NCBI GenBank assembly: GCA_963746775.1
Contig: CAVVCK010000001.1
Span: forward strand, 211,050-275,049
DNA length: 64,000 nt
Source: an uncultured bacterium
GTDB lineage: Bacteria; Patescibacteriota; JABMPQ01; CAVVCK01
Direction of reading: 5' to 3'
A program made the position numbers and the translations under genes. Shown in pieces: positions 27,482 through 46,382 of the stretch (positions within the stretch are counted from its first letter, which is position 1; each line of letters starts with the position of its first letter). The notes under the pieces were generated by a model that was not told the origin of the DNA, did no database searches, and worked only from the letters and a program-made list of their open reading frames with translations.

Positions 27482-28777
27482 TTAAGAACAACTTCCGACA
27501 GCATCTATCGTCTTCCAGGAAGCACTATTACAATAACATGGTTTATCTGCACTAATATCATAATAGATAGCACCCTTATTTGTTCCATCACATGTGCCAG
27601 GATCATCAGTAATATTCAGTTTCAATAACCCGTCACTGATTTCTACATTACCATTAAATCCACCCGCTACTGTTGCTGATCCTGCAGCTATTCCATACAC
27701 ACCAACTCCAAACGTTCCCGTAGCTTCTCCATAAACACCAACACTCCCACTATCTGAACCGTTTGATATAAATCTTCCCCCAACACCTTGGCCAGATATA
27801 CCGCTAGCCCTACCATAAACTCCAACACCAGCCGTATTCGAATCTGTTTTAAAATATCCTCCATAATTAACTCCTGAGGTACTATTAGCATAACCATAAA
27901 TTGCTTTTACTCCACTACCTGAATTAGTAGCTGAAATCAAACTAGTAGGCGAACCGCTCACCGTAATACCAGTACTAGTTCCAGAGCTTACTGTTAGAGT
28001 ATTATTAATAGTCAATGACCCCGTCATTGTCTCATTCGTATCATCATTTAAAAACCGTGAATCATAAGCAGAACCTGATTGATAAGTTGATGTCAAATCA
28101 GCACCTGCTATTGTTCCGTTTAAAATTTTAGCCGTTGTTATAGTATTATCAGCTATATCAGCCGTAGTTATAGTTCCATCAGTGATCATACTAGATGTGA
28201 CACCAGAAACACTAAGAATCACAGCACCTGATGTTCCACCACCACTAAGTCCTGATCCTGCAGTAATTTCTGTAATTTCACTACTAGATCCAGAGCTACC
28301 ATCTATCCACTCTAGTGCTCCACTCGAATTAAGTGATAATATTTGCCCTGATGATCCAGTATTAGATGTAGTTAGTTGACTTACTCCTATCAAATCTGAT
28401 CCTTGAATGGTACCTAATATTTCTAGGTTATCATTGATAACAAAAGGAGTATTCCCGTTAGCTTCTGGGCCAGAAGTTGCTCCACGCCAAACTTGGCCAT
28501 CTATTCTAACATCATCACCAAAGGTTACAGGTATTTCTGCTCCTGTGTCTACATTGGTAGTTTCATTGATAATCGTTCCATTAAAATAAGTAACGCCACC
28601 ATGTCCTTGGGTTCCGACTCGAAGAGAATAAACTCTGGCAGTACCTAAAACTTGTAATTCTTGATCAATAACTTGCGTATTCGCTGGTTGTATTTGATTA
28701 GTTACTGACGCAGACACAGAATTAGTAAAAATAAATACAAAAAAAGCGATTGCAATAGAAATTAAAATATTTTTCAT
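27482..28777 (-). CDS. Secreted tail-fibre-like protein (paralog 2) with Cys-containing C-terminal domain
   Basis: Signal peptide MKNILISIAIAFFVFIFTNSVSA; shares N-terminal module (VGTQGHGGVTYFNGTIINETTNVDTGAEIPVTFGDDVRIDG) with 1938..3674 and 45336..46382; ITTADIADNTITTAKILNGTIAGADL repeats; C-terminus has 5 Cys (..PGTCDGTNKGAIYYDISADKPCYCNSASWKTIDAVGSCS). Confidence 0.55.
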   Translation of the reverse strand: MKNILISIAIAFFVFIFTNSVSASVTNQIQPANTQVIDQELQVLGTARVYSLRVGTQGHGGVTYFNGTIINETTNVDTGAEIPVTFGDDVRIDGQVWRGATSGPEANGNTPFVINDNLEILGTIQGSDLIGVSQLTTSNTGSSGQILSLNSSGALEWIDGSSGSSSEITEITAGSGLSGGGTSGAVILSVSGVTSSMITDGTITTADIADNTITTAKILNGTIAGADLTSTYQSGSAYDSRFLNDDTNETMTGSLTINNTLTVSSGTSTGITVSGSPTSLISATNSGSGVKAIYGYANSTSGVNYGGYFKTDSNTAGVGVYGRASGISGQGVGGRFISNGSDSGSVGVYGEATGTFGVGVYGIAAGSATVAGGFNGNVEISDGLLKLNITDDPGTCDGTNKGAIYYDISADKPCYCNSASWKTIDAVGSCS

Positions 28778-28870
28778 TTGTTTTATTATTATCTATACCA
28801 TAACACAAAAATAAAAAAATAAGAATATCATTTCTTATTTTTTTTTATTAATTTAAGCTAAAATTATACC

Positions 28871-30292
28871 TTAATCAAGCACTTCAGTATTTACTCCTTC
28901 TGAAAAATCTATTTCACTATATTTTTGTAATATTTTTTTTATTTGTTTCTTTAAAATATCATATTTCTGTTTTTCCCTAGCTTCAAACTTTACAGTTAAA
29001 TAAGGTCCATTCTGAGAAGCTCTGATAACAAACATTTCATTATCAGTATCCATACGAATTCCATCAATCTCTATATAATCTGCCTTAGGATATAATTTTT
29101 TAATATCTTTACCTATTTTATCACTAATTAATTTAAATTTTATATTATCAGGACAGCCAACTTTTATCTCCGGACTAGAAATATACTGGGGCAGTTTCTG
29201 AATTGCCTCACCTAAAGATTGTCTGGTCCTAGTTAAATAAGATAAAAGTCTTAGGGTTGCCATAGCGCCATCATCATGACCATAAAAATTATCCACAAAG
29301 AAAAAATGACCAGATAACTCTCCGCCAAAGATAGCTCCACTAGAACTTACTTTTGCTTTTATGAAAGAATGACCAGTTTTCCACATAATAGGCACTCCGC
29401 CAGATTTTTTTATTACTTCATCTACTTGTTTTGAACATAAAACATTATAAACTATTTTTCCTCCCGGAAGGAAATCCAAAACATCTTTAGAAAATAACGA
29501 TACCAGAGCATCATTCCAAATCATATTGCCTTTTTCATCAACTATTCCTAATCTATCACCATCAGTATCATAAGAAAATCCCATATCAGCTTTTTCTTTT
29601 ATTACTCTCTCAGCTAATCGCTTTTGTACTTTCTCTTCTGTTGGATCAGCTACGCCAACCGGAAAAGTTGGATCAGGCTTAGTATTCTGCTCGATTACTT
29701 CCAGGCCAGCTTTTCTTAAAATTTTCGGCATAAATAATCCTGGTGTGGCTGCACAAGCATCAACTACTACTTTAAAATTTTTAATTTTATCTACCCTTTT
29801 TAAAATATCTGCTTCATAAATACTGAATATATCTTTTTTTATATGTTTTCCTACTACCTCTTTCGTTCTAAATTTACCTGAATTAACCAATTCTCTAAAA
29901 TCAATAATTTCTTCCTGCACCATTGTCTCAGAATATCCCGTGCCAAATTTAAATCCATTATACTCTCGGGGATTATGAGAAGCTGTAATCATAATTGCCC
30001 CCTTTGTCCTGAAATAATAAGGTGCAAAATAAACAATTTGAGACAAAGTCATCCCAATATCATAGACTGTAATACCTGATTCCGTTAATCCTTTTATTAA
30101 GGCTTCACAAAAAATAGGACTCGACTCTCTTGAATCATAGCCCACTATACATTCATAAATTCTTCTATTTAGAAGCCAGGTGGCATAAGCTTTTCCTAAA
30201 ATCTCTACCTTTTCTTTATCTAAATCCTTACCCACTACACCACGTAAATCATAGCCTCTAAATATTTCTTTGTTTATTTTTATATTTTTCAT
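28871..30292 (-). CDS. Phosphoglucomutase/phosphomannomutase
   Basis: 473 aa; active-site TASHNP motif (IMITASHNPREYNGFKF), metal-binding DTDGDR motif. Confidence 0.8.
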   Translation of the reverse strand: MKNIKINKEIFRGYDLRGVVGKDLDKEKVEILGKAYATWLLNRRIYECIVGYDSRESSPIFCEALIKGLTESGITVYDIGMTLSQIVYFAPYYFRTKGAIMITASHNPREYNGFKFGTGYSETMVQEEIIDFRELVNSGKFRTKEVVGKHIKKDIFSIYEADILKRVDKIKNFKVVVDACAATPGLFMPKILRKAGLEVIEQNTKPDPTFPVGVADPTEEKVQKRLAERVIKEKADMGFSYDTDGDRLGIVDEKGNMIWNDALVSLFSKDVLDFLPGGKIVYNVLCSKQVDEVIKKSGGVPIMWKTGHSFIKAKVSSSGAIFGGELSGHFFFVDNFYGHDDGAMATLRLLSYLTRTRQSLGEAIQKLPQYISSPEIKVGCPDNIKFKLISDKIGKDIKKLYPKADYIEIDGIRMDTDNEMFVIRASQNGPYLTVKFEAREKQKYDILKKQIKKILQKYSEIDFSEGVNTEVLD

Positions 30293-30307
30293 GGAAAAAT
30301 TAAAAAG

Positions 30308-30526
30308 CTATCTTTCAGCACAAGGTAACAATGCCAAAAATCTTGCTCTCTTAACTGCTCTAGTTACCATTCTTTGATGTTTTGAACAATTTCCACTTCT
30401 CTTGCCAGTCACAAGTTTACCATAAGTAGATACAAATCTTCTTAGAAGAGTAACATCCTTATAATCAACTTGTTTGATTTGTTCAGCACAAAGCTCACAT
30501 CTTTTCTTAATTATTTCATTAGCCAT
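30308..30526 (-). CDS. rpsR: 30S ribosomal protein S18
   Basis: 72 aa; conserved ..YKDVTLLRRFVSTYGKLVTGKRSGNCSKHQRMVTRAVKRARFLALLP.. Confidence 0.9.
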   Translation of the reverse strand: MANEIIKKRCELCAEQIKQVDYKDVTLLRRFVSTYGKLVTGKRSGNCSKHQRMVTRAVKRARFLALLPCAER

Positions 30527-30544
30527 ATAAATTTATATTATATA

Positions 30545-31075
<531 letters not shown>

Positions 31076-31096
31076 TTAATAATATTTTAAATTTTA

Positions 31097-31543
31097 TTAA
31101 TCAGTTAAATCCTTACCTAAAGCTTCTTCTAATCTTGCATCAAAATCTTTTTTTACGTCTTCTTTTTTCCTTTCAATTTTTACGTCTTGCACCTTATTCT
31201 TTTTAACCTTATCATCCTCTGTTACTTCTTTATTTTCTTCCTTTGGTTTTTCAACTTTTATCACTTCTTGCTTGATAATTAAAAATCTAATAATTTTTTC
31301 TTCTAATTTTAATTTGTTGTCAATCTTACCTATCATTACAGGCGCTAACTCAAAATTATATTGAACATAATAACCATCAAAAAACTTTTCTATCGGATAA
31401 GCTAACTCTTTCTTGCCCCAGACATTTTTCTCAAAATTATCTACTTTATTTTCAGATAAAATTTTATCTATTTTTCCAATTTCCTGTTCAACTTCCTGAT
31501 CATTAATTTTTGGAGAAAGAATACAAACTAGTTCATAATTCAT
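31097..31543 (-). CDS. rpsF: 30S ribosomal protein S6
   Basis: N-terminus MNYELVCILSPKINDQEVEQEIGKIDKIL.. typical of S6; rpsF-ssb-rpsR arrangement. Confidence 0.85.
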   Translation of the reverse strand: MNYELVCILSPKINDQEVEQEIGKIDKILSENKVDNFEKNVWGKKELAYPIEKFFDGYYVQYNFELAPVMIGKIDNKLKLEEKIIRFLIIKQEVIKVEKPKEENKEVTEDDKVKKNKVQDVKIERKKEDVKKDFDARLEEALGKDLTD

Positions 31544-31680
31544 TGATTTATCTTAATTTAAGTTATTTTATAAAGCATAGCTTAACATACTTTAAAAATT
31601 ATTGCAATATTGAAATAATTAGTAAGATAATATATATTAAATGCATTATCCTGCTACTTATTATTTTATAATTTAAAAAA

Positions 31681-32244
31681 ATGCTTACTATGAATGACTT
31701 AAAACCTAATCAAATGATAGAATTAGAGAGTCATCTCTACCAAGTTTTATCAAAAGATTTTATTAGAAATGCTCAAAGAAGACCGGTTATGTCAACTAAA
31801 CTAAAAGATTTAATTTCTGGTAAAATAGTCAAGCATACCTTCCAACAATCTGATGTTATTAAAGAGGTAGATCTTGAAAAAAACATAGCTCAATTTCTTT
31901 ATAAAGACGGAGAAAAATATTTCTTCATGGATAATACGACCTTTGAACAATTTTTCTTACCAAAAAAACTAATAGGCTCTAACGAAAAATTTTTAAAAGA
32001 AAATACAGAGGTCTCTGTCTTAAAATATGAAGAAACTTTTATAGGCATTAGCCTACCCGTCAAAATGAATTTTAAAGTAATTTCCGCTCCACCAGACACA
32101 AAAGGAAACTCAGCCCAATCAAGTGATAAGGAAATAGAGCTAGAAACTGGTTTCAAAATAAAAGCTCCGCTATTCATTAAAGAAGGCGATATAGTTAAAA
32201 TCAATACGGCCAAAGAAATTTATATTGAAAGAGTATCTAACTAA
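31681..32244 (+). CDS. efp: Elongation factor P
   Basis: 187 aa; KOW-like N-domain and two OB domains; 3' end overlaps recA stop by 4 bp (convergent). Confidence 0.85.
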
Positions 32245-33266
32245 TTATTTTTTCTTTCCTTCATAACTTCTTCCCAAACTTTCTTTTCTATTTCAGAAGA
32301 TAATTTTGGATTTTCTCTTAAGTATTTTTTGGCTGTCTCTCTACCTTGACCTAATTTATGACTGCCAAACATGTACCAAGATCCTTTTTTATTGACAATT
32401 TTATATAAAACTCCGGTATCAATTAAATCTCCTTCTCGTGATATTCCCTCATTATACATAATATCAAATTCAGTAGTCTGAAAAGGAGGAGCAACTTTAT
32501 TCTTAACAACTTTAACTTTCACTCTATTGCCAATCACCTTATCACCCATTTTGATTTGAGCTGCTCTTCTTAGATCAATTCTAACAGATGAATAAAATTT
32601 TAGGGCCTTGCCGCCGGTAGTTTCTTCGGGATTTCCAAACATAATCCCTATTTTCATTCTAATCTGATTTAGAAAAATAACACAAGTCTTTAACTTATAT
32701 ATAGCCGCTGTTAACTTTCTTAGGGCTTGTGACATTAATCTCGCTTGCAAACCCATATGAGAATCACCCATATCACCTTCAATTTCAGCTCTGGGAGTAA
32801 GCGCTGCTACAGAGTCAATTACAACAACATCAATAGCATTAGAACGAACAAGCGTTTCTACAATCTCTAGGGCTTGCTCTCCTGTTTCTGGTTGCGAGAT
32901 AAGAAGATCATTAATATTAACCCCTATTTTTCTAGCATAGTCAGGATCCAGTGCGTGTTCAGCATCAACAAAAGCAGCCAATCCTCCTTTTTTTTGAACA
33001 TTAGCAATGATATGTTGGGTTAGAGTAGTTTTTCCCGAAGACTCAGGACCAAATATTTCAATTACTCTGCCTCTAGGTACACCACCAATACCTAAGGCAA
33101 TATCTAGCGATATCGAACCAGTTGGAATAGAATCTATTTGTTGAATTCTAACTTCTCCTAATTTCATAATTGAACCGTCGCCAAATCTATCTTTTATCTC
33201 ATCTATAGCATGTTGAGCTGCTTTAACTTTAGCATCTGAATTATCAGATTTAATTTTTTGTGACAT
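32241..33266 (-). CDS. recA: Recombinase RecA
   Basis: 341 aa; Walker [11 protein letters not shown]1/L2 loop regions, canonical RecA core. Confidence 0.95.
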
Positions 33267-33319
33267 TTTTTAATTGTTATTTATAAATTATCGGTTATTT
33301 AATACTATAATAGTTTATT

Positions 33320-34348
33320 TTAATTTTCAAGAACTAAATCTCTAGTAAAAGCCATTTCCCTAATAACTTCTCCAGTATTACCCAAAGCTCCTAAATCTTC
33401 GCCATTAAAATTTACATAAGTAGTATCAGCCTTTCCCGAAGATATGGTTATATTTTCTTTGGCTCTGAATTCTTGTTTCGAATCTGGCAACATAGTTCCA
33501 GAATAGGCTATTTTGTTATCTTCTTTTACGTAAATCCAGGTTGCCCTATCTTTTATGGAAACTGTCAAATAAATTTCTTTATTATTATTTTCTACATTAT
33601 TTTTAGAAGATTCTACTTGCTCATTTTCATTATTATCTTTTTTAGCTACTAATTCTTCCGGAGCATCATACATAATTTTTCTTTCTACAACATTTTCTTT
33701 TTCAAATCTATTAGTAGCCACAATTCTTAGAATGTTAACTCCCGACTGTAAACTAACAGTTTCTTTAAAATTTCCCTCTGAATCAACAAAAATTGGCTGA
33801 TCATTAATTGTCAGATCAGAATCTAAATCAGATTGACCAAAAACTGTAATAGTTTCATCGTTAACAGTTTTATCTTGATCTAAATTATAAACAACTAATT
33901 TTGGAGGGCGAGATAAGCCACTTACTTGATACCATAAATAAAAAACAATTCCAAACGTTACTAAAACAATAAAAAATATTTGAATCATACGCGGAGTTAC
34001 TACAATAGGAACCGAAGTAATAAATTTTTTTTTATCTTGTTTGAAATTAGTAATTTTATTTTCTATATTTCTTTCTTTATTATAAATTTTAAGAACTGAA
34101 GATAAGTTTATTTTTAAAAACTTAGCATAACTTTTTAAATAGCCATGAACATAAACATCTGCCGGTAGTTTATCGTACTTGCCTTTCTCCAAATAATATA
34201 AATATTCTCTTTGAATATTTATTTTTTTTGCTATATCTTCTAATGATAAAGAAGTCCTTCTTTTCCTGGCAGCTTCTAATTTCTCACCCAAAGACTGAGT
34301 AGATTTTACTTTTCTAATTTTAAAATTATTATTCATAAAACATCTCAA
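33320..34348 (-). CDS. RodZ-like cytoskeleton protein with XRE-family HTH
   Basis: N-terminal HTH (LGEKLEAARKRRTSLSLEDIAKKINIQREYLYYLEKGKYDKLPADVYVHGYLKSYAKFL), single TM, extracytoplasmic C-terminal domain. Confidence 0.6.
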   Translation of the reverse strand: MRCFMNNNFKIRKVKSTQSLGEKLEAARKRRTSLSLEDIAKKINIQREYLYYLEKGKYDKLPADVYVHGYLKSYAKFLKINLSSVLKIYNKERNIENKITNFKQDKKKFITSVPIVVTPRMIQIFFIVLVTFGIVFYLWYQVSGLSRPPKLVVYNLDQDKTVNDETITVFGQSDLDSDLTINDQPIFVDSEGNFKETVSLQSGVNILRIVATNRFEKENVVERKIMYDAPEELVAKKDNNENEQVESSKNNVENNNKEIYLTVSIKDRATWIYVKEDNKIAYSGTMLPDSKQEFRAKENITISSGKADTTYVNFNGEDLGALGNTGEVIREMAFTRDLVLEN

Positions 34349-34351
34349 AAT

Positions 34352-36655: not shown

Positions 36656-36796
36656 AATTAAAAATTACCTCTCTTTTCATTAATTTTATACTTAAAAGAC
36701 CTGATAGTCAACTTTTGTAAATTTTAATAAGTGCTGTTTTTGTTTATAAATTTGGTTACAATTTTTATAAAAAAATCTCTATCTTATTACCTAAAC

Positions 36797-36847: not shown

Positions 36848-39800
36848 TTACTTTCTAAAACCAGTTCCGGCTGGAATTAATTTACCAATAATAACATTTT
36901 CTTTGAGTCCTTTTAGTTCATCTTGCTTACCAGTAATAGCTGCATCAATTAATATTTTTGCAGTTTCTTGGAAAGAAGCAGCAGATAAGAAACTCTCTGT
37001 AGCTAATGATGCCTTAGTTATACCAAGTAAAACTTCTACACCTTCTGGCGGAATTTTTCCAGCTTCTGTTAATTCTTCTTTAGATTTCCTAAATTTAATT
37101 CTATCAATAACATCTCCAGATAAAAAATTACTATCACCTGCTTTAACAATTCTTACCCAAGAAAGCATTCTTCTAATAATTAGCTCTACGTGTTTGTCAT
37201 TCAAATCTTGACCCTGGCTTGAATAAATATATTGAACCTCTTTTAAAATATATTTTTGAACAGCAGATCTGCCACCTAACTGAAAGAGTTTTTGTATATC
37301 AACCCTTCCTTCGGTCATTTGCTGACCACTAATTACTTCGTCTCCTGACTTAACCCATAATATTGCCTGAGCAGAAAGAACATACTTTTTCTCAATAACT
37401 CCATCATACTTAACTACTAATTCATCTTTATTTAATTTTACTCTACCGTCAGTTTTAGCTTTTATTTTCTCTCTTCCTTTAACTAATAAAATTTTCCCTT
37501 CAGTTACTTTTTCATTATCTTTAATTTTTATTTTATCATTTTTCTCTATTTGCACTATGTCATCTTTAACTCTAGAAGATACTATTCTAACTATTTTATT
37601 GCCTTTATCATCCTCAATATGCACTTTCCCGCTTATTTCAGCAATTAAAGCTGGCTCTTTTATTCCCCTAGCTTCAAATAACTCCTCAACTCTGGGTAAA
37701 CCTTGAGTAATATCACCCTCGCCTGCTACACCACCAGTGTGAAAAGTACGCATAGTAAGCTGTGTTCCAGGTTCACCAATAGACTGAGCCGCTATAATAC
37801 CTACTGCTTGTCCCAAATCTACTACTTTATTTCGACCCAAATCCCAGCCATAACATTTCTTGCAAATACCAGATGCTAATTTACAATTCATTACTGATCT
37901 TACTTTTACAGAATCGATTCTTTTTTCATCTATCTTGATTGTAGTTTCTTTATTAATCATTTCCCCTCTTTTTATAATAACTTCTCCCTTATCATCAACA
38001 ACATCAGCCGCTGCATATCTTCCTAAGATACGTTCAGACATTTTTTCATTCATCTCTTCATCATCTGCTCTGGATATCTCTGCTCCTTCTAAATCGCCAC
38101 AATCTTCTTCGTGAATAATCATGTCCTGAGCTACATCAATCAAACGACGAGTAAGATATCCAGCATTAGCAGTACGAAGAGCTGTATCAGTTAAACCTTT
38201 TCTGGCACCATGAGTAGAAATAAAATATTCTAATACACCTAATCCTTCTTTAAAACTATTTTTAACCGGTAGCTCAATAGTCTTTCCAGATGGTGCAGCC
38301 ATCAATCCTCTCATACCGCACATCTGAACAATCTGAGGCCAAGAACCTCTTGCTCCAGATTCAACCATATAATGTACTGAACCATAGTTATCCAGTGTAT
38401 CTGTAACATGATCTGAAATATCATTTTTAACTTTAGCCCAAGTTTCAATAATCTTGATATATCTTTCCTCATCTGTTAAAAGACCAGCCTTGAACTGTTG
38501 CCTTAATTTTTCAACTTCCTTACTAGCAATATCTATAAGACTTTTCTTTTCATCAGGTATTACTAAATCATCCATTCCCCAAGATAATCCAGCATAAGAA
38601 AGATATTTAAAACCAATTTTCTTAATATTATCAACCAACCTAACAACAATCTCTTTATCAAACTTAAAGATCATTTCACTAATCAATTTGGATAATGTTT
38701 TTTTATCTAAAAGTTTATTTAAAAAAGGATATTCTTTCGGTAAAATTTTATTAAAAATAACCCGACCTACACACGTTTCAATATATTCATCATTAATATT
38801 AACTTTAACTTTAGCCCTAACATCCACAAATCCATTCTCATAAGCCATAATAGCCTCATCAGCATTACTAAAACATTTTCCTTCTCCGCAAACTCCCGTT
38901 TTTATATTAGTAATATAATAGCAACCAAGAACTATATCTTGAGAAGGAGTGGTAACAGGAGCACCAGTGGCTGGCTTTAAAAGATTTTGGACAGAAGCCA
39001 TAATATTCTTTGCTTCTTCTTGCCCTTGCGGAGTTAGAGGAAGATGAACAGCCATTTGATCACCATCAAAATCAGCGTTGAAAGCACTACAAACCATTGG
39101 ATGAATCATTATTGCCTTGCCTTCAATTAACCTCGGACGAAAAGCTTGAATTCCAAGTCTATGTAGAGTAGGAGCACGATTTAATAAGACATATTTATTC
39201 TGAATAACTTCTTCTAATATATCCCATACTTCGTCTTTACCTTCTTCTATTAATTTTGAAGCAGATCTTACATTGTGAGCCGAACCAGATTGTATTAATT
39301 TATTAATAACAAAAGGTTTAAATAGCTCTAGCGCCATAATTTTTGGAATTCCACATTCTGATAGATCTAAGTCTGGACCAATTACAATAACTGAACGTCC
39401 AGAATAATCTACTCTCTTACCTAAAAGATTCTGTCTAAATCTACCTTGTTTACCCTTTAACATATCCGCTAGGGATTTTAGTGGCCTCTTCTGAGCTGTA
39501 GAGGTAATTTCTTTTCCAGATCTTGAAGTGTTATCAATTAAAGCATCAACCGCTTCTTGTAACATTCTCTTTTCGTTACGACAAATAACTTCAGGAGCAT
39601 TAAGTTCTATTAATCTCTTTAGACGATTATTTCTATTAATTACTCTTCTATATAAATCATTCAAATCTGAAGCAGCAAATCTTCCACCATCAAGCTGAAC
39701 CATTGGTCTCAAGTCTGGCGGAAGAACCGGAATAACGGTCAAAATTGTCCATTCTGGCCGAACACCCGCTCTAATCATATTACGAACAAGGTTGAGTCTT

Positions 39801-40627
39801 TTTTTAATTTTTTTCTTTTCTTGGGAATATGTATTTCTGGCTTTTTCTTCTAAAAATTTAGCTAATTTTTCTAAATCGATTTCTTTTAAAACTTTATAAA
39901 TAGCTTCCGCTCCAATACTAGCCTGAAAAACATGACCATACTTCAGAGACAAATCTCTAAAAAGAATTTCTGAGATAATGGCTAATTTCTCAATCCCTTC
40001 TAAATTTTTCTTTTCTTCATTAAAAGATTTTTCTAGCCTTTCAACTTTAGCAATTTTTTCTTCGCTCAGAGTAACTATTTTATCATCAATCTTATTGCCC
40101 CCTTCGGTTTTTAACTTATTAATTTTATCATTATATTCTTTATCAATGATTTTCTTTTTAGATTTTAATTCTTCTTTTATTTCATTTAAAGCTTTTTCTT
40201 TGGCATCATAATCTACTTGCGTAATTATATAACTACCAAAATAAATAATTTTCTCTAAATTCTTAACTGATAGATCTAATAATAAACCAATTTTAGAAGG
40301 TACTCCTCTTAGAAACCAGATGTGACTAACTGGCGCTGCTAATTTTATATGGCCCATTCTCTCTCTTCTAACAATAGCACGGGTAACTTCAACTCCACAT
40401 TTATCACACACTATTCCTTTATAACGTATTCTTTTATATTTACCGCAATAACATTCCCAATCCTTAGTGGGACCAAAAATTCTTTCAGAAAAAAGTCCGT
40501 CTTTTTCTGGCCGTTGAGTTCTGTAGTTTATTGTTTCAGGCTTTTTTACCTCACCGTGAGACCACGATAAAATAACTTCTGGTGAAGCAAGTTTTAATTT
40601 TAAAGCTTTAAAATCTGTTGGATACAT
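36848..40627 (-). CDS. rpoC: DNA-directed RNA polymerase subunit beta'
   Basis: 1259 aa; zinc-binding CxxC..CxxC N-terminus, NADFDGD catalytic motif, trigger loop and bridge helix regions. Confidence 0.95.
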   Translation of the reverse strand: MYPTDFKALKLKLASPEVILSWSHGEVKKPETINYRTQRPEKDGLFSERIFGPTKDWECYCGKYKRIRYKGIVCDKCGVEVTRAIVRRERMGHIKLAAPVSHIWFLRGVPSKIGLLLDLSVKNLEKIIYFGSYIITQVDYDAKEKALNEIKEELKSKKKIIDKEYNDKINKLKTEGGNKIDDKIVTLSEEKIAKVERLEKSFNEEKKNLEGIEKLAIISEILFRDLSLKYGHVFQASIGAEAIYKVLKEIDLEKLAKFLEEKARNTYSQEKKKIKKRLNLVRNMIRAGVRPEWTILTVIPVLPPDLRPMVQLDGGRFAASDLNDLYRRVINRNNRLKRLIELNAPEVICRNEKRMLQEAVDALIDNTSRSGKEITSTAQKRPLKSLADMLKGKQGRFRQNLLGKRVDYSGRSVIVIGPDLDLSECGIPKIMALELFKPFVINKLIQSGSAHNVRSASKLIEEGKDEVWDILEEVIQNKYVLLNRAPTLHRLGIQAFRPRLIEGKAIMIHPMVCSAFNADFDGDQMAVHLPLTPQGQEEAKNIMASVQNLLKPATGAPVTTPSQDIVLGCYYITNIKTGVCGEGKCFSNADEAIMAYENGFVDVRAKVKVNINDEYIETCVGRVIFNKILPKEYPFLNKLLDKKTLSKLISEMIFKFDKEIVVRLVDNIKKIGFKYLSYAGLSWGMDDLVIPDEKKSLIDIASKEVEKLRQQFKAGLLTDEERYIKIIETWAKVKNDISDHVTDTLDNYGSVHYMVESGARGSWPQIVQMCGMRGLMAAPSGKTIELPVKNSFKEGLGVLEYFISTHGARKGLTDTALRTANAGYLTRRLIDVAQDMIIHEEDCGDLEGAEISRADDEEMNEKMSERILGRYAAADVVDDKGEVIIKRGEMINKETTIKIDEKRIDSVKVRSVMNCKLASGICKKCYGWDLGRNKVVDLGQAVGIIAAQSIGEPGTQLTMRTFHTGGVAGEGDITQGLPRVEELFEARGIKEPALIAEISGKVHIEDDKGNKIVRIVSSRVKDDIVQIEKNDKIKIKDNEKVTEGKILLVKGREKIKAKTDGRVKLNKDELVVKYDGVIEKKYVLSAQAILWVKSGDEVISGQQMTEGRVDIQKLFQLGGRSAVQKYILKEVQYIYSSQGQDLNDKHVELIIRRMLSWVRIVKAGDSNFLSGDVIDRIKFRKSKEELTEAGKIPPEGVEVLLGITKASLATESFLSAASFQETAKILIDAAITGKQDELKGLKENVIIGKLIPAGTGFRK

Positions 40628-40687
40628 AATATATAAATTAATTTTTATTAATTTAATTAGGAAACAGCTATGAAAAATAATTAATTT

Positions 40688-43600
40688 TTATTTTTCTTCA
40701 ACTAGATTTTCATTTTTATCTTTCTCTTCAACTTCTTTAATCACTTTTTGACCTACCATTTCTACATCTAGGGCTAAACTCTTTAATTCTTTAATCAAAA
40801 CTCCAAAAGATTCTGGAATATTTGGCGGTTTTATAGTTTCACCTTTAATTATTGATTCATAGGTTTTAGATCGGCCTAATACATCATCAGATTTAATTGT
40901 TAATACTTCCTGTAAAATATGTGCTGCACCATAAGCTTCCAGAGCCCAAACTTCCATTTCTCCGAATCTCTGACCACCAAACTGCGCTTTACCACCAAGA
41001 GGCTGTTGAGTAACTAGAGAATATGGACCAATTGATCTTTGATGAATTTTTTCTTCTACTAAGTGATGTAGCTTTAAAATATACATAACACCAACTGTTG
41101 TTTTTTCAGTAAATTTTTCTCCAGTCCTACCATCTTGCAATTGTACTTTGCCATCTTCAGGAAAACCCGCTTTTACTAATTCTTCTTTAATTTGTTCTTC
41201 TGACACACCTTCAAAAACAGGGGTAGCTACTTTATAACCTAATTTTTTAGCAGCCCACCCAAGATGAGTCTCCAATATCTGACCAAGATTCATACGAGAG
41301 GCTACACCTAAAGGATTTAAAATAACATCAACTGGAGTTCCATCTAATAAATGAGGCATATCCTCTACTGGAACTACCTTTGAAATAACACCTTTGTTAC
41401 CATGACGACCAGCCATTTTATCTCCTACCTGAACTCTTCTAGATTGAGCTATGGATATTTGAAGTGTTTTTATTACCCCAGCTGAAAGCTTATCACCATT
41501 TTTACGTGAAAATTCTTTAATATCTACTACTTTCCCTCTTTCCCCATGTTCGAGATATAGTGATGTATCCCTAACATCACGAGCTTTTTCTCCGAATATT
41601 GCTCTGAGCAATCTCTCTTCAGCTGTTAATTCAGTTTCGCCTTTGGGAGTAATTTTACCTACTAAAATATCTCCCGAGGAAACTTCTGCTCCGACACGAA
41701 TAATTCCTTCCTCATCTAAATCTTTTAATTTTTCTTCTCCAACGTTAGGAATATCACGAGTCACAACTTCTGGCCCAAGCTTTGTATCTCGGACATCAAC
41801 AGAAAAATCTGAGATATGAATAGAAGTATAATAGTCTCCCTGAACAATTTTTTCAGAAATTAATATAGCATCTTCGAAATTACCTCCACCCCAAGACATA
41901 AAAGCAACTACCATATTTTGTCCTAAAGCTAATTCTCCATGATCTGTCATGCCATCAGCTATAACCTGATCTTTTTTAATAATATCATCTACATCGACTA
42001 GAGGACGTTGATTTATACAAGTTGAAGTATTAGAACGATTAAAATTATGTAATTGGTATTCTTTAACATTACCACTATCTTCCAATATTTTTATATGACT
42101 AGCATCAACTTCCAACACTTTTCCAGAGGCATGAGAAATAACTAAAGCTCCAGAATCATAAGCAGCCTTTTCTTCTATACCAGTACCTACAATTGGAGAA
42201 TCAGGATTTACGCATACTACTGCCTGCCTCTGCATATTTGTACCCATCAAGGCTCTGTTAGCATCATCATGTTCTAAGAAAGGAATTAAGGCTGTAGCTA
42301 CTGAAACAATTTGTTTTGGAGAAACATCTACATATTCTATTTTACCTGTAGCCTCAATAGCCGGTTCTCCTTTAATTCTGACTTCAGCTCTGCTGTTAAT
42401 AAAATAGCCATTTCCATCAATAGGAGTAGTAGCTGGCGCGGTTACTTTATTTTCTTCAGTTGGAGCATCTAAATATTCTATATCATCAGTTACTCTAGAT
42501 CTTAATTGAATAGCGTCTATATCTAATCTCTTTATAATTTTAACATCTTGAGCAGTTAATTTGGTATCACCTTTAATTACGGTCTTACCTGACTTTGGAT
42601 CAATTACTCCTTTTTTATAAATAATTTCTCCCTCTGCTTTATCAAAATCCTTTTTCTTAATTTCTCTTAACACTTTTCTATAAGGAGTTTCAATAAAACC
42701 ATATTTATTTAATTTGGCATAGCTGGCTAAATGGTTTACTAATCCGATATTTGGACCCTCAGGAGTTGCAATTGGACATATTCTGCCATAATGAGTTCGG
42801 TGCACATCACGAACATCAAAACCAGCCCTCTCACGAGATAGACCTCCAGGACCCATAGCTGATAATCTTCTCTTGTGCTCAAGCTCAGACATTGGATTAG
42901 TCTGATCCATGAATTGCGACAACTGAGAAGTCATAAAAAATTCTCTAATAGAAGCAATTATTGGTCTAGCGTTTACAATTTGAGCTGGAGTAATTGTATT
43001 AATATCTATAGTACTCATTCTATCTTTCACAATTCTAGCCATACGTGCTAGCCCAATTCTCATTTTATTTTGTACTAACTCTCCAACTGCTCTAATCCTT
43101 CTGTTGCCCAAGTGATCAATATCGTCTGGTTCACCTTGAGTAATATTAAGTCGAATAACTTCTTTTAAAATAGCTACTAAATCTTCCTTTTTAAAAATTC
43201 TATTTTTTTCATTTATAACAATATCTTGTTCAAGTCTCTGGTTCATTCTAAATCGTCCCACTTCACCCAAATCATAACGATCCAAATTAAAAAACATTCC
43301 TTGTACTAATGATTTAGCATTGTCAGCTGTTGCTAAATCGCCTGGTCTAATTCTCCTATATATTTCAATAAATCCTTCGTCTGAATTATGGGCCACATCT
43401 TTCCCAATAGTTGTTTTAATATATTTTCTATTAGGATCAGTATCTATATCTTTAAAAATTTGTAAAATTTCTTTATCAGTTCCATAACCAAAAGCACGCA
43501 ATAGTGAAGTTGCGGGAACTTTTCTCTTTCTATCTATTTTTACATATATTACTCCATTAGAATCAGTTTCAAATTCAAGCCAAGCACCACGATTTGGAAT

Positions 43601-44068
43601 CACTTTTGCCCCAAAATGTTTTTCTCCTTTGGAAATATTGGAAGTAAAAAATACTCCTGGAGATCTTATAATCTGACTCACCACTACTCTCTCTACTCCA
43701 TTAATAATAAATGTTCCTCTCTCTGTCATTAAAGGAAATTCACCCAAATATACTTCCTGCTCTTTGATTTCTCCTGTTTGTTTATTGGTAAGCTGTACTT
43801 TCACGCGCAAGGCTGCTTCAAAAGTTGCATTTCTTGATTTGGCTTCTACTTCATCGTACTTTGGATCATCGAAAGAATAATCTAAAAAATTAAGTTCTAA
43901 GGCTTTTTCAGTAAAATCTAAAATTGGCGATATCTCTGAAAATAGCTCTTTTAATCCTTCTTTCAAAAACCAGTCATAAGAATTAAGTTGAACCTCAATT
44001 AAATTAGGTAGATCAAAGATTTTTTGATTACTTTGATTTAAATACTTACGTTTTGTTTCTTGAAGCAT
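40688..44068 (-). CDS. rpoB: DNA-directed RNA polymerase subunit beta
   Basis: 1126 aa; canonical beta-subunit conserved regions; directly upstream of rpoC. Confidence 0.95.
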
Positions 44069-44126
44069 TAGATTATAATAAAGAAATAAATAAACTAAAT
44101 TAGGAAGTTTGGGGATACTAAAAAAT

Positions 44127-44152
44127 AGCGCAAATATAAAAAGCGCTTTTTC
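44127..44152. promoter_or_regulatory. Hairpin AGCGC-N11-GCGCT with flanking A/T runs in the rpoB leader region
   Basis: Seen in sequence; possible attenuator-like structure roughly 75 nt upstream of rpoB. Confidence 0.25.
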
Positions 44153-44313
44153 TGATGTAAATTATTTAACAAAAAAGGAAGGCGATATTACTTTTCGCAT
44201 GCTTATATAATATATAAAATAAAAAATGTGTCAATAAAAAAATAATACTATTTCCCAAAAGTAAAATTATGTGATAAAAATACCTTAAATTTCTAATTAC
44301 TAATTACTAATAA

Positions 44314-45288
44314 ATGACTAAAACTCAATATAAAATTTCTAATAATAACTTACCTCCGCTTATTGTTATTCTAGGACCTACCAGCTCTGGCAAAACCAGC
44401 CTTTCTTTGAAATTGGCTAAAAAGTATAATGGAGAAATTGTATCAGCTGATTCTAGACAGATTTATAGAGAAATGGATATAGCTACTGGTAAAATTAGAA
44501 TCGAGAATCATGAATCGAGAATCATGAATCAAGACATCGATAAATTTTATTATGGCGATGTAAATAGCATACCCCACTACATGATCGATATAATAAATCC
44601 TGACACAGAATATTCAGTGGCAAATTATAAAAGAGACACTCTAAAAGTAATTAATGATATTTTGAATAGAGGTAAGGTTCCTTTTCTAGTTGGTGGTACT
44701 GGATTATATATTAAGACCCTAGTTGATAATTTAAATATCCCTAAAGTGAAGTCTGATATGGCTCTAAGAAAAAAGTTAGATGCTATGAGTAAGGAAAAAT
44801 TATTTTCTATTCTTAAAAAATTAGATCCCGAGGGTGCAAGAAGAATAGATAAAAATAATAAAAGAAGACTGATTAGAGCTATCGAGATCTGTAAACAGAC
44901 TGGCCAGAAATATTCCGAACAAAATAAAAAGGGCAAACAATTATTTAATGCCCTACAAATTGGAATAAAACTGCCCAGGAAAAAACTTTATAAAAAAATT
45001 GATAAGCGCGTTGATGAAATGCTAGGGAAAGGATTAATTAATGAGACTAAAAAATTAATGAAAAAATATCCATCCAATTTACCTGCTATGTCTGGCATTG
45101 GATATAAAGAAATAGAGGAATATTTAAATAAGAAAATAACTTTAAAAGAAGCTATTCAAAAAATAAAATATAGGACTCATCAATATGTTAGGAGACAAGA
45201 TACTTGGTTTTTGAAGAATAAAAGGATCAAATGGGTAGAAAATTATAAGGAAGCTGAAAAACTAGTGAAAATATTTTCAGACAAATAA
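44314..45288 (+). CDS. miaA: tRNA dimethylallyltransferase
   Basis: 324 aa; P-loop GPTSSGKTSLS, DSRQIYREMDIATGK motif; contains an insertion built from GAATCNN heptamer repeats (44498-44538). Confidence 0.85.
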   Translation: MTKTQYKISNNNLPPLIVILGPTSSGKTSLSLKLAKKYNGEIVSADSRQIYREMDIATGKIRIENHESRIMNQDIDKFYYGDVNSIPHYMIDIINPDTEYSVANYKRDTLKVINDILNRGKVPFLVGGTGLYIKTLVDNLNIPKVKSDMALRKKLDAMSKEKLFSILKKLDPEGARRIDKNNKRRLIRAIEICKQTGQKYSEQNKKGKQLFNALQIGIKLPRKKLYKKIDKRVDEMLGKGLINETKKLMKKYPSNLPAMSGIGYKEIEEYLNKKITLKEAIQKIKYRTHQYVRRQDTWFLKNKRIKWVENYKEAEKLVKIFSDK

Positions 45289-45291
45289 AAA

Positions 45292-45318
45292 ACACAAGAC
45301 TGTAGTCTCGTGTTTTTT
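45292..45318. terminator. Bidirectional terminator hairpin ACACAAGAC-TGTA-GTCTCGTGT with T-runs on both strands between miaA and 45336..46382
   Basis: Seen in sequence. Confidence 0.5.
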
Positions 45319-45335
45319 CAATTAATCAGGAATAT

Positions 45336-46382
45336 CTACGGAAGAGGATTATCAACTGTATAACTAATTGTAACACCACCTAACCGCATATCTGCACTCG
45401 AAGCACTAAAATTTACAAATATATAATAAGAATATTGGCTATTATCAATAATGGCATTAGAAATGGAAGTAGCTGAGGCCTCTCTCCATGATCCTAAATT
45501 AGTAGTAGGAACAATAGAGGCTATTGTCTCAGTAGTACTTTTATTATTACTTCTTGCTAACGCAAAATTCATATTCTCATCTGGTACGTTATTATAATAA
45601 TCTACTGTCATCCCCGTTATAATAGCTCCATTAGGAAAATCTACAGGCGACGAAAAAGAATCATCTGTTGTACTAAGAACACCACTTGCTTTAGCATAAG
45701 TATCAGTCTCATTATTAGGTATAAAGCCATACCCGGAAACAGATAAATACCTCGTCTGTGCAGAATTATAAGAATAAGAAGCTGCAGTTATATTAGAATT
45801 ATCAGCAATTTTATCACCAGTTACAGCATCATCAGCAAGCCTAGCAGTATTTATCCCTCCATCAGCTACTGATACAATAGCATCACCAGAAGATCCATTA
45901 GATACAGAAATACCATCACCAGCTAAAACTGAAGTAATATCACCAACAGTAACTGTACTAGTATCATCACTATTATTGGCTAAGGTTAGAGTTCCAGTTA
46001 TCTGCACATCATCATTAATAATAAAAGGCATATCATCTCCCAGGCCTGGTCCATAGTTCAAACCACGAAATACACGGCCATCTATTCTGACATTATCACC
46101 AAAGGTAACAGGATTATCCACACCATCATTAGTAGTACTATTTACAATAGTACCATTAAAGAAAGTAACACCACCTGTACCCTGTTTACCAATATAAACA
46201 GAATTAAAGCGACCAGTATTATTAACTACCAACTCTTCATTGTAAGTAATACTAGAGGCAGGTTGTAATTGGCTTATGGTTGAAGTAGCTTGGTCTATTC
46301 CACTAAGTGTGGCAGCCGAAGCTGAACCTATGGTAGCCAACAAGCCCAAAGTTACTGCTATAACAAAAGCTAATTTTTTCAT
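45336..46382 (-). CDS. Secreted tail-fibre-like protein (paralog 3)
   Basis: Signal peptide MKKLAFVIAVTLGLLATIGSASA; conserved module IGKQGTGGVTFFNGTIVNSTTNDGVDNPVTFGDNVRIDG; INTARLADDAVTGDKIADNS repeat; divergent C-terminal domain. Confidence 0.55.
   Translation of the reverse strand: MKKLAFVIAVTLGLLATIGSASAATLSGIDQATSTISQLQPASSITYNEELVVNNTGRFNSVYIGKQGTGGVTFFNGTIVNSTTNDGVDNPVTFGDNVRIDGRVFRGLNYGPGLGDDMPFIINDDVQITGTLTLANNSDDTSTVTVGDITSVLAGDGISVSNGSSGDAIVSVADGGINTARLADDAVTGDKIADNSNITAASYSYNSAQTRYLSVSGYGFIPNNETDTYAKASGVLSTTDDSFSSPVDFPNGAIITGMTVDYYNNVPDENMNFALARSNNKSTTETIASIVPTTNLGSWREASATSISNAIIDNSQYSYYIFVNFSASSADMRLGGVTISYTVDNPLP

What the first reader, a model, noticed from the sequence alone, without database searches (positions are those of the whole stretch)
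27482..46382. Three-member paralog family of secreted fibre proteins sharing an N-terminal module but with different C-terminal domains
ORFs 1938..3674, 27482..28777 and 45336..46382 all begin with a signal peptide. Each then carries a module of about 70 aa with near-identical core V/IGxQGxGGVTF/YFNGTIxNxTTN..PVTFGDxVRIDG. After the module they diverge. One ends in the S74 chaperone domain. One has a Cys-rich terminal knob (..PGTCDGTNKG..CYCNSASWKTIDAVGSCS). One has a Tyr/Asn-rich domain. A shared anchoring or assembly module with variable distal domains resembles receptor-binding-protein diversification. These could be surface adhesins of an episymbiotic lifestyle, or pilus/S-layer associated fibres. 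The three are dispersed rather than tandem and are each monocistronic with their own terminators.
Basis: seen in the sequence. Interest (0 to 1): 0.6.

Follow-up and report, generated by a model that had tools for sequence, protein, structure and literature searches.

The report
Secreted phage-fibre-like adhesin family in Patescibacteria
A tiny-genome (Patescibacteria-type) bacterium carries several chromosomal genes for secreted, phage-tail-fibre-like proteins that share one strongly conserved, uncharacterised N-terminal module but have different, fast-evolving outer ends, which makes them good candidates for the surface fibres these bacteria use to grip other cells.

Summary
Three minus-strand ORFs (1938..3674, 27482..28777, 45336..46382) share a signal-peptide-like start and a ~100-aa module. 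Pairwise E-values are 1e-30 to 1e-61, and the module is the largest DNA repeat in the window.

- **Corrections:** A and B stay homologous for ~400 aa. A has no terminator and is packed between uvrA and a 333-aa gene. A fourth paralog lies elsewhere on the same contig.
- **Family:** The module matches no Pfam, NCBIfam or PDB entry and no PHROG hit covers it. It defines 438 protein clusters, always N-terminal in the listed hits, nearly all from Patescibacteria MAGs, up to ~9 copies per genome, none in viral contigs. It is joined to more than 30 C-terminal classes; the only Pfam hits are phage fibre/spike domains.
- **The three ends:** A ends in an S74 chaperone-protease with the Ser/Lys motif. 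B ends in a conserved 4-Cys knob. C ends in a confidently predicted CBM-like beta-sandwich.
- **Evolution:** A related genome has positional orthologs of all three. N-module 84-98% identical, tips 24-50%, flanking genes mostly 71-90%.

Best reading: Sec-exported trimeric surface fibres, with the N-module as proximal docking or assembly end and variable ligand-binding tips. The closest known parallel is the Bdellovibrio MAT fibre superfamily. Function and anchoring are inferred.

The parts
1938..3674 (-). Gene A, 578 aa: signal peptide, N-module, neck, Gly-rich repeat shaft, S74 chaperone-protease
   Evidence: ORF. Homology to B and C. PHROG tail-fibre/tail-protein hits over aa 244-567. Positional ortholog P0143 between uvrA and a 331-aa gene in a related genome.
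3600..3674 (-). A signal-peptide-like region, aa 1-25 (MLKYCKLISFAFVFSVFLLSKPVLA|DD)
   Evidence: Read from the sequence. 222 of 223 family members with an intact N-terminus have such a hydrophobic leader. Cleavage is inferred, not shown.
3300..3593 (-). A N-module, aa ~28-125
   Evidence: Alignments A1/A2. DNA repeat families D1, D2 and D4. 98% identity to the ortholog in the 51-100 aa block.
1941..2243 (-). A C-terminal Peptidase_S74 intramolecular chaperone domain and tail, aa 478-578, with Ser478...Lys483 (SSRRYK)
   Evidence: Pfam PF13884 E=1.6e-13. The motif SSxRYKxxI is conserved in all 5 S74-bearing members. The last block is 96% identical to the ortholog.
27482..28777 (-). Gene B, 431 aa: signal peptide, N-module, shaft, Gly-rich repeats, 4-Cys knob
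   Evidence: ORF. Homology. Positional ortholog P0245 between PGM/PMM and trpS.
28709..28777 (-). B signal-peptide-like region, aa 1-23 (…TNSVSA|SV)
   Evidence: Read from the sequence. Cleavage is inferred.
28400..28708 (-). B N-module, aa ~24-126
   Evidence: Alignment A2. AF2 pLDDT 77-92 over about aa 35-130, but almost no regular secondary structure as a monomer.
27485..27625 (-). B C-terminal Cys knob, aa ~385-431 (NITDDPGTCDGTNKGAIYYDISADKPCYCNSASWKTIDAVGSCS)
   Evidence: pLDDT about 86-92 for aa 391-430 with small beta hairpins. The motif and Cys pattern are conserved in at least 8 family members. It falls in C-terminal class 4, with 14 members.
27391..27426 (-). Terminator-like hairpin downstream of B, shared with convergent trpS
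45336..46382 (-). Gene C, 348 aa: signal peptide, N-module, short shaft, beta-sandwich tip
   Evidence: ORF. Homology. Positional ortholog P0041 between DEAD helicase and miaA.
46314..46382 (-). C signal-peptide-like region, aa 1-23 (…IGSASA|AT)
   Evidence: Read from the sequence. Cleavage is inferred.
45984..46283 (-). C N-module, aa 34-133
   Evidence: Profile match 34-133. Alignment A2.
45339..45770 (-). C C-terminal beta-sandwich (jelly-roll, CBM-like) tip domain, aa ~205-348
   Evidence: AF2 10-residue-block pLDDT 85-97 over aa 211-340 (78 for the last 8 residues), all-beta. Foldseek vs PDB gives CBM6/35/22/32, the BcsB carbohydrate-binding domain and Cry domain III, E 2e-5 to 7e-4, TM about 0.6. 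It belongs to the largest C-terminal class, 155 members.
45287..45318 (-). Terminator-like hairpin downstream of C, shared with convergent miaA

Best explanation
The three genes, plus at least one more elsewhere in the genome, encode Sec-exported, phage-tail-fibre-like surface fibres of a Patescibacteria (CPR) bacterium.

Proposed mechanism:
1. The precursor is exported and the signal peptide is cut at an A-x-A site (inferred).
2. The chains assemble into an elongated fibre, probably a homotrimer. In A, assembly is driven by the C-terminal S74 intramolecular chaperone, which then removes itself at Ser478 using Lys483. This is inferred from the domain and motif.
3. The invariant ~100-aa N-module is the proximal end. 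It holds every paralog to the same, still unknown, element of the cell's own surface and/or nucleates fibre assembly (inferred).
4. The different C-terminal ends are distal ligand-binding tips. These are the region exposed after S74 removal in A, the disulfide-bonded knob in B and the CBM-like beta-sandwich in C.
5. Together the tips give one small cell a repertoire of specificities for surfaces of other cells, most plausibly host glycans (inferred).

Shown here: the homology, the domain content, the taxonomic restriction, the chromosomal stability and the conserved-base/variable-tip evolutionary pattern.
For: Within the window and family:
- The three proteins are homologous, and the module is under purifying selection rather than recent gene conversion. 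In the core, dS is 0.8-1.9 and dN 0.05-0.16.
- An exhaustive HMMER search of 1.84e9 representatives finds 438 clusters, 367 of them at E<=1e-10. In the 150 listed the module starts at residue 1-82.
- 222 of 223 members with an intact start have a hydrophobic leader.

Distribution:
- Named homologs and 93 genome hits are almost all Patescibacteria, Parcubacteria, Kerfeldbacteria or WWE3 MAGs.
- There are several copies per genome, often in tandem.
- No copy was found in IMG/VR viral contigs.

Links to phage fibres:
- The only Pfam families found in 112 members are phage fibre/spike domains: Peptidase_S74 in 5 members, and Phage_depo_C, K1-lyase_C, End_tail_spike and Gp53-like_C in one each.
- A's C-terminal half hits PHROG tail-fibre families.
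- The neck motif gives a borderline match to a phage tailspike, 6eu4, E=0.017.
- The S74 Ser/Lys motif is intact and conserved.

Tips:
- C's tip is a confident CBM-like beta-sandwich.
- B's knob has 4 conserved Cys, as expected for an extracellular disulfide-bonded domain.
- There are at least 33 C-terminal classes behind one N-module.

Anchoring and evolution:
- None of 268 members has an LPXTG motif or a C-terminal hydrophobic run, and 2 have a lipobox-like match. Any retention would therefore have to be non-covalent, and the N-module is the only invariant candidate.
- All three genes have positional orthologs in a related 1.05-Mb contig.
- In these orthologs the N-module blocks are 84-98% identical and the S74 tail 96%, while tip blocks are 24-50%. 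Most flanking genes are 71-90% identical; two are lower (an unnamed 237-aa gene 59%, PGM/PMM 33%).

Precedent:
- The experimentally characterised Bdellovibrio MAT fibres have the same layout: signal peptide, conserved ~130-aa N-domain without PDB homolog, trimeric shaft, then S74 or non-S74 tips. They are surface displayed and one binds prey glycans (PMC10769870).
Against: - There is no direct evidence for export, cleavage, trimerisation, surface retention or any ligand.
- The N-module fold is unresolved. The monomer AF2 models give it pLDDT 60-92 with almost no secondary structure.
- Foldseek with model B finds nothing significant in the PDB or BFVD.
- Sequence profiles find no PDB or Pfam relative of the module.
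- No conserved neighbouring gene points to a docking partner.
- Only about 5 of 112 members carry S74, so trimerisation of the rest is extrapolated from shared shaft homology.
- The CBM-like match is only fold-level (TM about 0.6, 8-16% identity), and no binding-site residues were identified.
- The episymbiotic lifestyle of this particular organism is assumed from its phylum.
Confidence: 0.55

Rival explanations
1. The proteins are secreted fibrous or lectin-like proteins that are not docked by the N-module. Examples would be components of the cell's own envelope, S-layer decoration or extracellular matrix. In this reading the N-module is a folding or trimerisation nucleus or a shaft base, not an anchor. 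The variable ends reflect envelope or matrix variation (for example phage or immune evasion) rather than host recognition.
For: - No canonical anchor was found, and no docking partner is known.
- The N-module looks like short beta-rungs. It gives a weak, non-significant match to a left-handed beta-helix protein, E=0.38, and NCBI names relatives 'beta strand repeat-containing' or 'FapA family'. This fits a structural shaft element.
- Wzy_C-like (about 6 loci) and GT4 (2-6 loci) envelope genes lie near members in a minority of the 79 loci.
Against: - A pure shaft element would not need to be strictly N-terminal and near-invariant while the rest of the shaft varies.
- The tip classes resemble phage receptor-binding and depolymerase ends and CBMs, which are ligand-binding modules.
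- The neighbourhood association with envelope genes is weak and mostly consists of generic ABC ATPases at 25-30% identity.
Confidence: 0.25
2. The genes are prophage or tailocin (phage-tail-like particle) tail-fibre genes, or recent phage-derived cargo.
For: - A carries an S74 domain and PHROG tail-fibre hits.
- The only Pfam hits in the family are phage fibre/spike domains.
Against: - All three have Sec-type leaders, which are not expected on fibres assembled onto particles in the cytoplasm.
- Their neighbours are housekeeping genes: uvrA, trpS, PGM/PMM, a DEAD helicase, miaA and rpoB/C. No phage structural genes are present.
- The same three loci are conserved by position in a related genome.
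- The N-module is absent from IMG/VR viral contigs by the pattern scan.
Confidence: 0.03
3. The genes form a polymorphic-toxin or bacteriocin-type system. A conserved N-terminal trafficking domain would deliver variable C-terminal killing or lectin-bacteriocin domains to competitors.
For: - The layout of conserved N-terminus plus highly variable C-terminus, with tandem arrays in some genomes (six in a row in L010), resembles polymorphic toxin loci.
Against: - No toxin-like Pfam domain was found in any of 112 members.
- No small immunity-like gene is consistently found downstream.
- The tips are beta-sandwich, knob or S74 types typical of binding fibres.
Confidence: 0.05
4. The genes are targets of a diversity-generating retroelement. 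This was suggested by the Asn/Tyr-rich C-terminus of C and by the abundance of such elements in CPR.
For: - The Tyr/Asn-rich composition of C's tip.
- DGRs are reported as common in CPR (abstracts listed).
Against: - No template/variable-repeat pair involving any of the three 3' ends appears among the window's repeats.
- C's tip is predicted as a CBM-like jelly-roll, not a C-type-lectin fold.
- No reverse-transcriptase search of the whole genome was possible.
Confidence: 0.02

Closest known systems
Bdellovibrio bacteriovorus MAT (mosaic adhesive trimer) fibre superfamily (Caulton et al. 2024, PMC10769870)
   Same: - The order of parts is the same: signal peptide, conserved beta-rich N-terminal domain with no PDB homolog, fibrous shaft, then either an S74 chaperone-protease or diverse non-S74 tips (beta-sandwich, lectin-like).
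- Both have many paralogs scattered round the chromosome.
- Both show phage-adhesin ancestry.
- Both occur in a bacterium that lives by attaching to other bacteria (searches compared).
   Different: - The CPR proteins are much shorter, mostly 250-580 aa, against 434-1915 aa for the MAT proteins whose lengths were read (626-843 aa for HD100 members; 434-1915 aa in Table S3).
- The organism presumably has a different envelope (general knowledge of CPR; not tested here).
- The MAT paper's list of MAT-like proteins in other lineages contains no Patescibacteria.
- Homology of the two N-domains could not be tested because no Bdellovibrio sequence is reachable with these tools.
- No localisation or binding data exist for the CPR family.
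Phage tail fibres and tailspikes with a C-terminal Peptidase_S74 intramolecular chaperone (e.g. endosialidase K1F type; Pfam PF13884)
   Same: - A has the S74 domain with a Ser...Lys motif.
- A has Gly-rich beta-helix-like repeats and a neck motif similar to a phage tailspike.
- The logic of a conserved N-terminal attachment end and a variable C-terminal receptor-binding end is the same.
   Different: - These proteins have Sec leaders and are encoded among housekeeping genes at conserved chromosomal positions.
- The N-terminal module is not found in viral contigs or PHROGs.
Carbohydrate-binding modules of the jelly-roll type (CBM6/35/22/32)
   Same: The predicted fold of C's tip domain matches these modules.
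   Different: - Sequence identity is only 8-16% and TM about 0.6.
- There is no Pfam CBM hit.
- Sugar-binding residues were not identified.

Membership tests
Bdellovibrio-type MAT fibre superfamily | N-terminal signal peptide | tested here: met
   n-, h- and c-regions with an A-x-A-type site are present in A, B and C. 222 of 223 intact family members have a hydrophobic leader. This is a heuristic test; no SignalP run was possible.
Bdellovibrio-type MAT fibre superfamily | Conserved beta-rich domain of about 130 aa directly after the signal peptide, homologous to the MAT N-domain | not testable with these tools
   A conserved ~100-aa module sits in the same position. No MAT N-domain sequence or structure is available here. 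afdb50 was unavailable, and the PDB holds no sequence relative of the module.
Bdellovibrio-type MAT fibre superfamily | Intertwined homotrimeric fibre | not testable with these tools
   Only monomer AF2 was possible. The models are extended and lack secondary structure in the N-module and shaft. A trimer is inferred from the S74 domain in A.
Bdellovibrio-type MAT fibre superfamily | C-terminus is either an S74 chaperone-protease or one of many unrelated tip domains | tested here: met
   S74 is present in A and in 5 of 112 members. There are at least 33 other C-terminal classes. C has a beta-sandwich tip.
Bdellovibrio-type MAT fibre superfamily | Display on the producer's surface and binding to target-cell surface molecules | not testable with these tools
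   This needs experiments.
Peptidase_S74 intramolecular chaperone (gene A only) | Match to PF13884 above the gathering score | tested here: met
   51.2 bits against a cut-off of 22, E=1.6e-13, aa 478-529.
Peptidase_S74 intramolecular chaperone (gene A only) | Catalytic Ser and a Lys five residues downstream (SDxxxK-type motif) | tested here: met
   S478-S-R-R-Y-K483. The motif SSxRYKxxI is conserved in all 5 S74 members, with Asp replaced by Ser. The consensus is as quoted in PMC10769870. Cleavage itself was not tested.
Phage or prophage tail fibre gene | Located in a phage structural gene cluster or found in viral genomes | tested here: not met
   The neighbours are housekeeping genes and synteny is conserved. 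The N-module was not found in IMG/VR.
DGR variable protein | Variable repeat at the 3' end with a cognate template repeat (and a reverse transcriptase) nearby | tested here: not met
   No such repeat pair exists in the 64-kb window. The rest of the genome was not searched.
Sortase-, lipoprotein- or TM-anchored surface protein | LPXTG motif, lipobox or C-terminal transmembrane segment | tested here: not met
   Among 268 members, 0 have LPXTG-like motifs, 2 have lipobox-like matches and 0 have a C-terminal hydrophobic run.
Jelly-roll carbohydrate-binding module (tip of C) | Beta-sandwich fold superposable on CBM6/35-type modules | tested here: inconclusive
   Foldseek gives E 2e-5 to 7e-4 and TM(target) about 0.55-0.6, but rmsd 4.5-5 A and 8-16% identity. 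There is no Pfam CBM hit. Ligand-binding residues were not assessed.

The most novel reading that the evidence does not exclude
The N-module would be a Patescibacteria-specific docking domain. It would plug a swappable set of phage-derived receptor-binding tips onto one common, still unknown, platform on the cell surface. These fibres would then be the primary determinants of which host cells Parcubacteria/Kerfeldbacteria-type episymbionts attach to. This would be a counterpart of the Bdellovibrio MAT system, either independently evolved or anciently shared, and the tip repertoire of a genome could be used to predict host range.
Probability: 0.35. Interest if true: 0.75.

Novelty: new variant of a known kind. 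Interest (0 to 1): 0.6.

Why it matters
How ultrasmall Patescibacteria recognise and hold on to their hosts is largely unknown. So far it has been attributed mainly to type IV pili (abstract of PMC11623550).

This family has several features that would make it a strong candidate. It appears limited to this phylum. It is present in up to about nine copies in genomes of roughly 0.5-1 Mb. It is built like phage receptor-binding proteins and like the experimentally validated Bdellovibrio MAT adhesins. It shows a conserved base with fast-evolving tips.

If the reading is right, it would provide:
- a concrete candidate for the host-specificity determinants;
- a new uncharacterised domain (the N-module) worth defining as a family;
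- a handle for predicting or testing host range, for example by using recombinant tips as probes on environmental cells.

Tried and rejected
- **Low-complexity artefact:** rejected. E-values are 1e-30 to 1e-61, and the core has dN/dS of about 0.06-0.17 with near-saturated synonymous sites.
- **Recent gene conversion as the cause of module identity:** rejected on the same dS values.
- **Prophage origin:** rejected on gene context, conserved synteny and absence from viral contigs.
- **DGR target:** no template/variable repeat was found in the window.
- **Conserved partner gene:** clustering of 832 ORFs from 79 loci gave no universal neighbour. The top 'Wzt' cluster is mostly generic ABC ATPases at 25-30% identity. 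Wzy_C, GT4, an NHL-repeat protein and an unknown 575-aa protein each occur in a minority of loci.
- **Fold assignment of the N-module:** failed. The monomer AF2 models are extended. Foldseek vs PDB and BFVD gave nothing at E<=1e-3. Profile searches against PDB and Pfam gave nothing significant. The afdb50 library was unavailable.
- **Sequence link of C's tip to phage families:** none in PHROGs or the PDB. The viral-contig scan with the tip alignment could not be run because no stretch was conserved enough.
- **Look-up of P0251:** this B-like N-module with a different tip comes from a 547,535-bp contig. The look-up, meant to test tip swapping at an orthologous locus, failed because the protein is not on record.
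- **Literature:** searches found no description of this family in Patescibacteria.
- **Shared upstream motif:** each gene has a -10-like TATAAT/TATGGT about 25-35 nt upstream. In a 31% GC genome this is not above chance.

Full report
**1. The observation**

- A: 1938..3674, 578 aa.
- B: 27482..28777, 431 aa.
- C: 45336..46382, 348 aa.

Each begins with a basic n-region, a hydrophobic stretch and an A-x-A-type site (VLA|DD, VSA|SV, ASA|AT). A conserved block follows, with the core V/IGxQGxGGVTF/YFNGTIxNxTTN...PVTFGDxVRIDG.

This is real homology.
- Pairwise blastp E-values are 1e-30 to 3e-61.
- The module is the largest direct-repeat family of the whole 64-kb window at the DNA level. A vs C is 81% identical over 142 nt.
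- tblastn finds no fourth copy in the window.
- Synonymous sites in the 34-codon core are nearly saturated (pS 0.49-0.69, dS 0.8-1.9), while dN is 0.05-0.16. The identity therefore reflects purifying selection on the protein, not recent gene conversion.

Four points of the description need correction.
- A and B remain alignable for about 470 columns (37% identity), and all three share a shaft segment beyond the module.
- Only B and C are followed by terminator-like hairpins, each shared with a convergent gene.
- A lies 33 nt after uvrA and 6 nt before a 333-aa gene, and no terminator-like site follows its stop.
- A fourth paralog, P0253 (415 aa), lies elsewhere on the same 547,309-bp contig.

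**2. Genomic setting**

The window has about 31% GC and is packed with housekeeping genes, including uvrA, trpS, a PGM/PMM-family gene, a DEAD helicase, gatB, miaA and the rpoB/C-sized ORFs. There are no phage structural genes.

The three proteins are themselves in the public collection, from a contig of 547,309 bp. All named homologs come from 'Patescibacteria group', 'Parcubacteria group' or 'Candidatus Kerfeldbacteria' MAGs. The organism is therefore a CPR/Patescibacteria bacterium with a genome of roughly half a megabase.

**3. The family**

An exhaustive HMMER search with the module profile against 1.84 billion representative proteins found 438 clusters at E<=1e-3 and 367 at E<=1e-10. Among the 150 hits listed, the module starts at residues 1-82 in proteins of 98-849 aa.

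Among 279 retrieved proteins, 268 carry the module. Of the 223 with an intact start, 222 have a hydrophobic leader.

A scan of one genome per species (185,579 genomes) with two peptide patterns confirmed 93 sites.
- Nearly all are in Patescibacteria, Parcubacteria, Kerfeldbacteria or WWE3 MAGs.
- A few MAGs are labelled Pirellulales or Gammaproteobacteria. Their loci have 40-47% GC, and some are small contigs, so mis-binning or mislabelling is likely but not proven.
- Individual MAGs carry up to about nine members, often in same-strand tandem arrays; L010 has six in a row.

The module was not found in IMG/VR viral contigs. It has no match in Pfam, NCBIfam or PDB sequences, and none of the PHROG hits to the three proteins covers it.

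**4. What follows the module**

Clustering the last 130 residues of 309 members gives at least 33 C-terminal classes. Of 112 members scanned against Pfam, the only hits are phage fibre/spike families: Peptidase_S74 (5 members) and Phage_depo_C, K1-lyase_C, End_tail_spike and Gp53-like_C (one member each).

- **Protein A** carries S74 (E=1.6e-13). Its motif S478-S-R-R-Y-K483 is conserved in all S74-bearing members. This matches the SDxxxK-type catalytic motif quoted for S74 domains (PMC10769870). A's C-terminal half also hits PHROG tail-fibre and tail-protein families.
- **The family profile** gives borderline PDB matches. One is to a phage tailspike neck motif (6eu4, E=0.017). The other is to 9eg4_H ('orf16'), aligned over the shaft-repeat region (E=0.013).
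- **Protein B** ends in a small knob. Its pLDDT is about 86-92 for aa 391-430. It has four Cys and a motif conserved in at least eight relatives: NTDsPGTCD..GAIYYD...PCYC...W..iDg.g.C.
- **Protein C** ends in a domain predicted with 10-residue-block pLDDT of 85-97 (aa ~211-340) as a beta-sandwich. Foldseek places it with jelly-roll carbohydrate-binding modules (CBM6/35/22/32), the BcsB carbohydrate-binding domain and Cry toxin domain III, at E 2e-5 to 7e-4 and TM about 0.6. This is a fold-level resemblance only.

The N-module itself is predicted with moderate to high local confidence: 60-79 with 42 sequences and 77-92 with 112 sequences. As a monomer it has almost no regular secondary structure. 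Foldseek with model B finds nothing significant in the PDB or BFVD. That would be expected of a segment that only folds within an intertwined oligomer, but it leaves the fold undetermined.

**5. Chromosomal stability and evolutionary pattern**

A related genome (ENA ERZ1757541 contig_6554, 1.05 Mb) has positional orthologs of all three genes.
- An A-like S74 protein lies between uvrA and a 331-aa gene.
- A B-like protein lies between PGM/PMM and trpS.
- A C-like protein lies between the DEAD helicase and miaA.

Most flanking genes are 71-90% identical between the two genomes; an unnamed 237-aa gene is 59% and the PGM/PMM gene 33%. The fibre proteins are only 54-64% identical. Within them the N-module blocks are 84-98% identical and A's last (S74) block is 96%, while the distal blocks are 24-50%.

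In A the most divergent block, aa 401-450 at 24%, lies just before the S74 domain. After self-cleavage that stretch would lie near the exposed end of the fibre. This conserved-base, fast-tip pattern is what is expected of receptor-binding proteins. These are long-resident chromosomal genes, not mobile cargo.

**6. Anchoring**

None of 268 members has an LPXTG-like motif or a C-terminal hydrophobic segment. Two have a lipobox-like match. No neighbouring gene is conserved across the 79 loci. If the proteins stay on the cell, retention must be non-covalent, and the only invariant part is the N-module. This is an inference.

**7. Most likely mechanism**

I propose Sec export and leader cleavage, followed by assembly into an elongated, probably trimeric fibre. 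In A the S74 domain would chaperone assembly and then cut itself off. The N-module would be the common proximal end, docking the fibre to an unknown surface element and/or nucleating assembly. The variable C-terminal tips would bind ligands on other cells, most plausibly glycans for the CBM-like tip of C. The multi-paralog repertoire would give a small cell several specificities.

I put about 0.55 on this reading. The main rival, at about 0.25, is that the proteins are secreted or envelope-associated structural or lectin-like fibres in which the N-module is only an assembly element. Prophage/tailocin, polymorphic-toxin and DGR-target readings are each at or below 0.05, for the reasons given in the rival list.

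**8. Comparison with known systems**

The closest described system is the Bdellovibrio bacteriovorus MAT (mosaic adhesive trimer) superfamily.
- It has 21 paralogs in strain HD100.
[quoted passage not shown] That domain is presumed to bind a predator surface element.
- An intertwined trimeric shaft follows, then either an S74 domain (13 members) or diverse non-S74 tips (8 members: beta-sandwiches, TNF-like, C-type lectin).
- The proteins are surface displayed, and one binds prey glycans (PMC10769870).
- That paper's list of MAT-like proteins in other predatory or symbiotic lineages does not include Patescibacteria.

The CPR family has the same order of parts but is much shorter. It occurs in a different phylum. 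It cannot be assigned to the superfamily, because homology of the N-domains, trimerisation and surface display could not be tested here. I therefore rate it a new variant of a known kind, not a demonstrated member.

Literature searches found no description of this family in Patescibacteria.

**9. Verdict**

- The finding is real and biologically meaningful.
- The functional reading as episymbiont adhesins is plausible and backed by a strong experimental analogy, but it is untested.
- Interest is 0.6.

Noticed in passing
window 55108-55178 and 56859-56929 (extending to 55166-55211 / 56971-57016): A 71-nt direct repeat, 94% identical, lies in two regions upstream of minus-strand genes 54628..55050 and 56285..56827 (D6/D18). 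It may be a duplicated promoter or leader.
   Followed up: no
window 930-1931 (minus strand), immediately downstream of gene A: A 333-aa ORF with no Pfam hit starts 6 nt after A's stop. The same A-to-331-aa-gene pairing, with a 6-nt gap, is conserved in the related genome at 80% identity. The two may be co-transcribed, and a functional link is possible. The sequence has a nucleotidyltransferase-like 'SDIDVFVI' stretch; this is my reading, not a tested result.
   Followed up: partly
L081 8422-9954 and 10001-11248 (same genome, outside the window): The fourth paralog, P0253, lies 46 nt downstream of, and on the same strand as, a 510-aa Peptidase_M23 / FG-GAP protein. That protein is a possible cell-wall hydrolase, and the pair might act together at a host contact site.
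   Followed up: no
window 28871-30292 (minus strand), upstream of gene B: The PGM/PMM-family gene is only 33% identical to its positional counterpart in the related genome, whereas most other flanking genes are 71-90% identical. This suggests non-orthologous replacement or unusually fast evolution.
   Followed up: no
window 7501-8568 (minus strand): A 355-aa T2SSE-family (PilT/PilB-like) ATPase lies about 4 kb upstream of gene A. The same arrangement is conserved in the related genome at 84% identity. This may matter because type IV pili are implicated in CPR attachment.
   Followed up: no
window 14109-14141, 18716-18748, 33295-33327: A 33-nt AT-rich repeat contains TGGTATAAT / TAGGTATAAT and occurs at three intergenic sites (D12). 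It looks like a recurrent extended -10 promoter element.
   Followed up: no
L016, L022, L024, L038; L027, L041, L050, L057, L062, L070, L071, L080: Family members also occur in MAGs labelled Pirellulales or 'uncultured Gammaproteobacteria'. The loci have 40-47% GC, and some are small contigs. These bins are probably contaminated or mislabelled.
   Followed up: partly
L010 3782-11935: Six family members lie in a row on one strand in a Parcubacteria MAG (bin.624), each with a different C-terminal end. This is a tandem 'tip library', in contrast with the dispersed arrangement in the window.
   Followed up: partly
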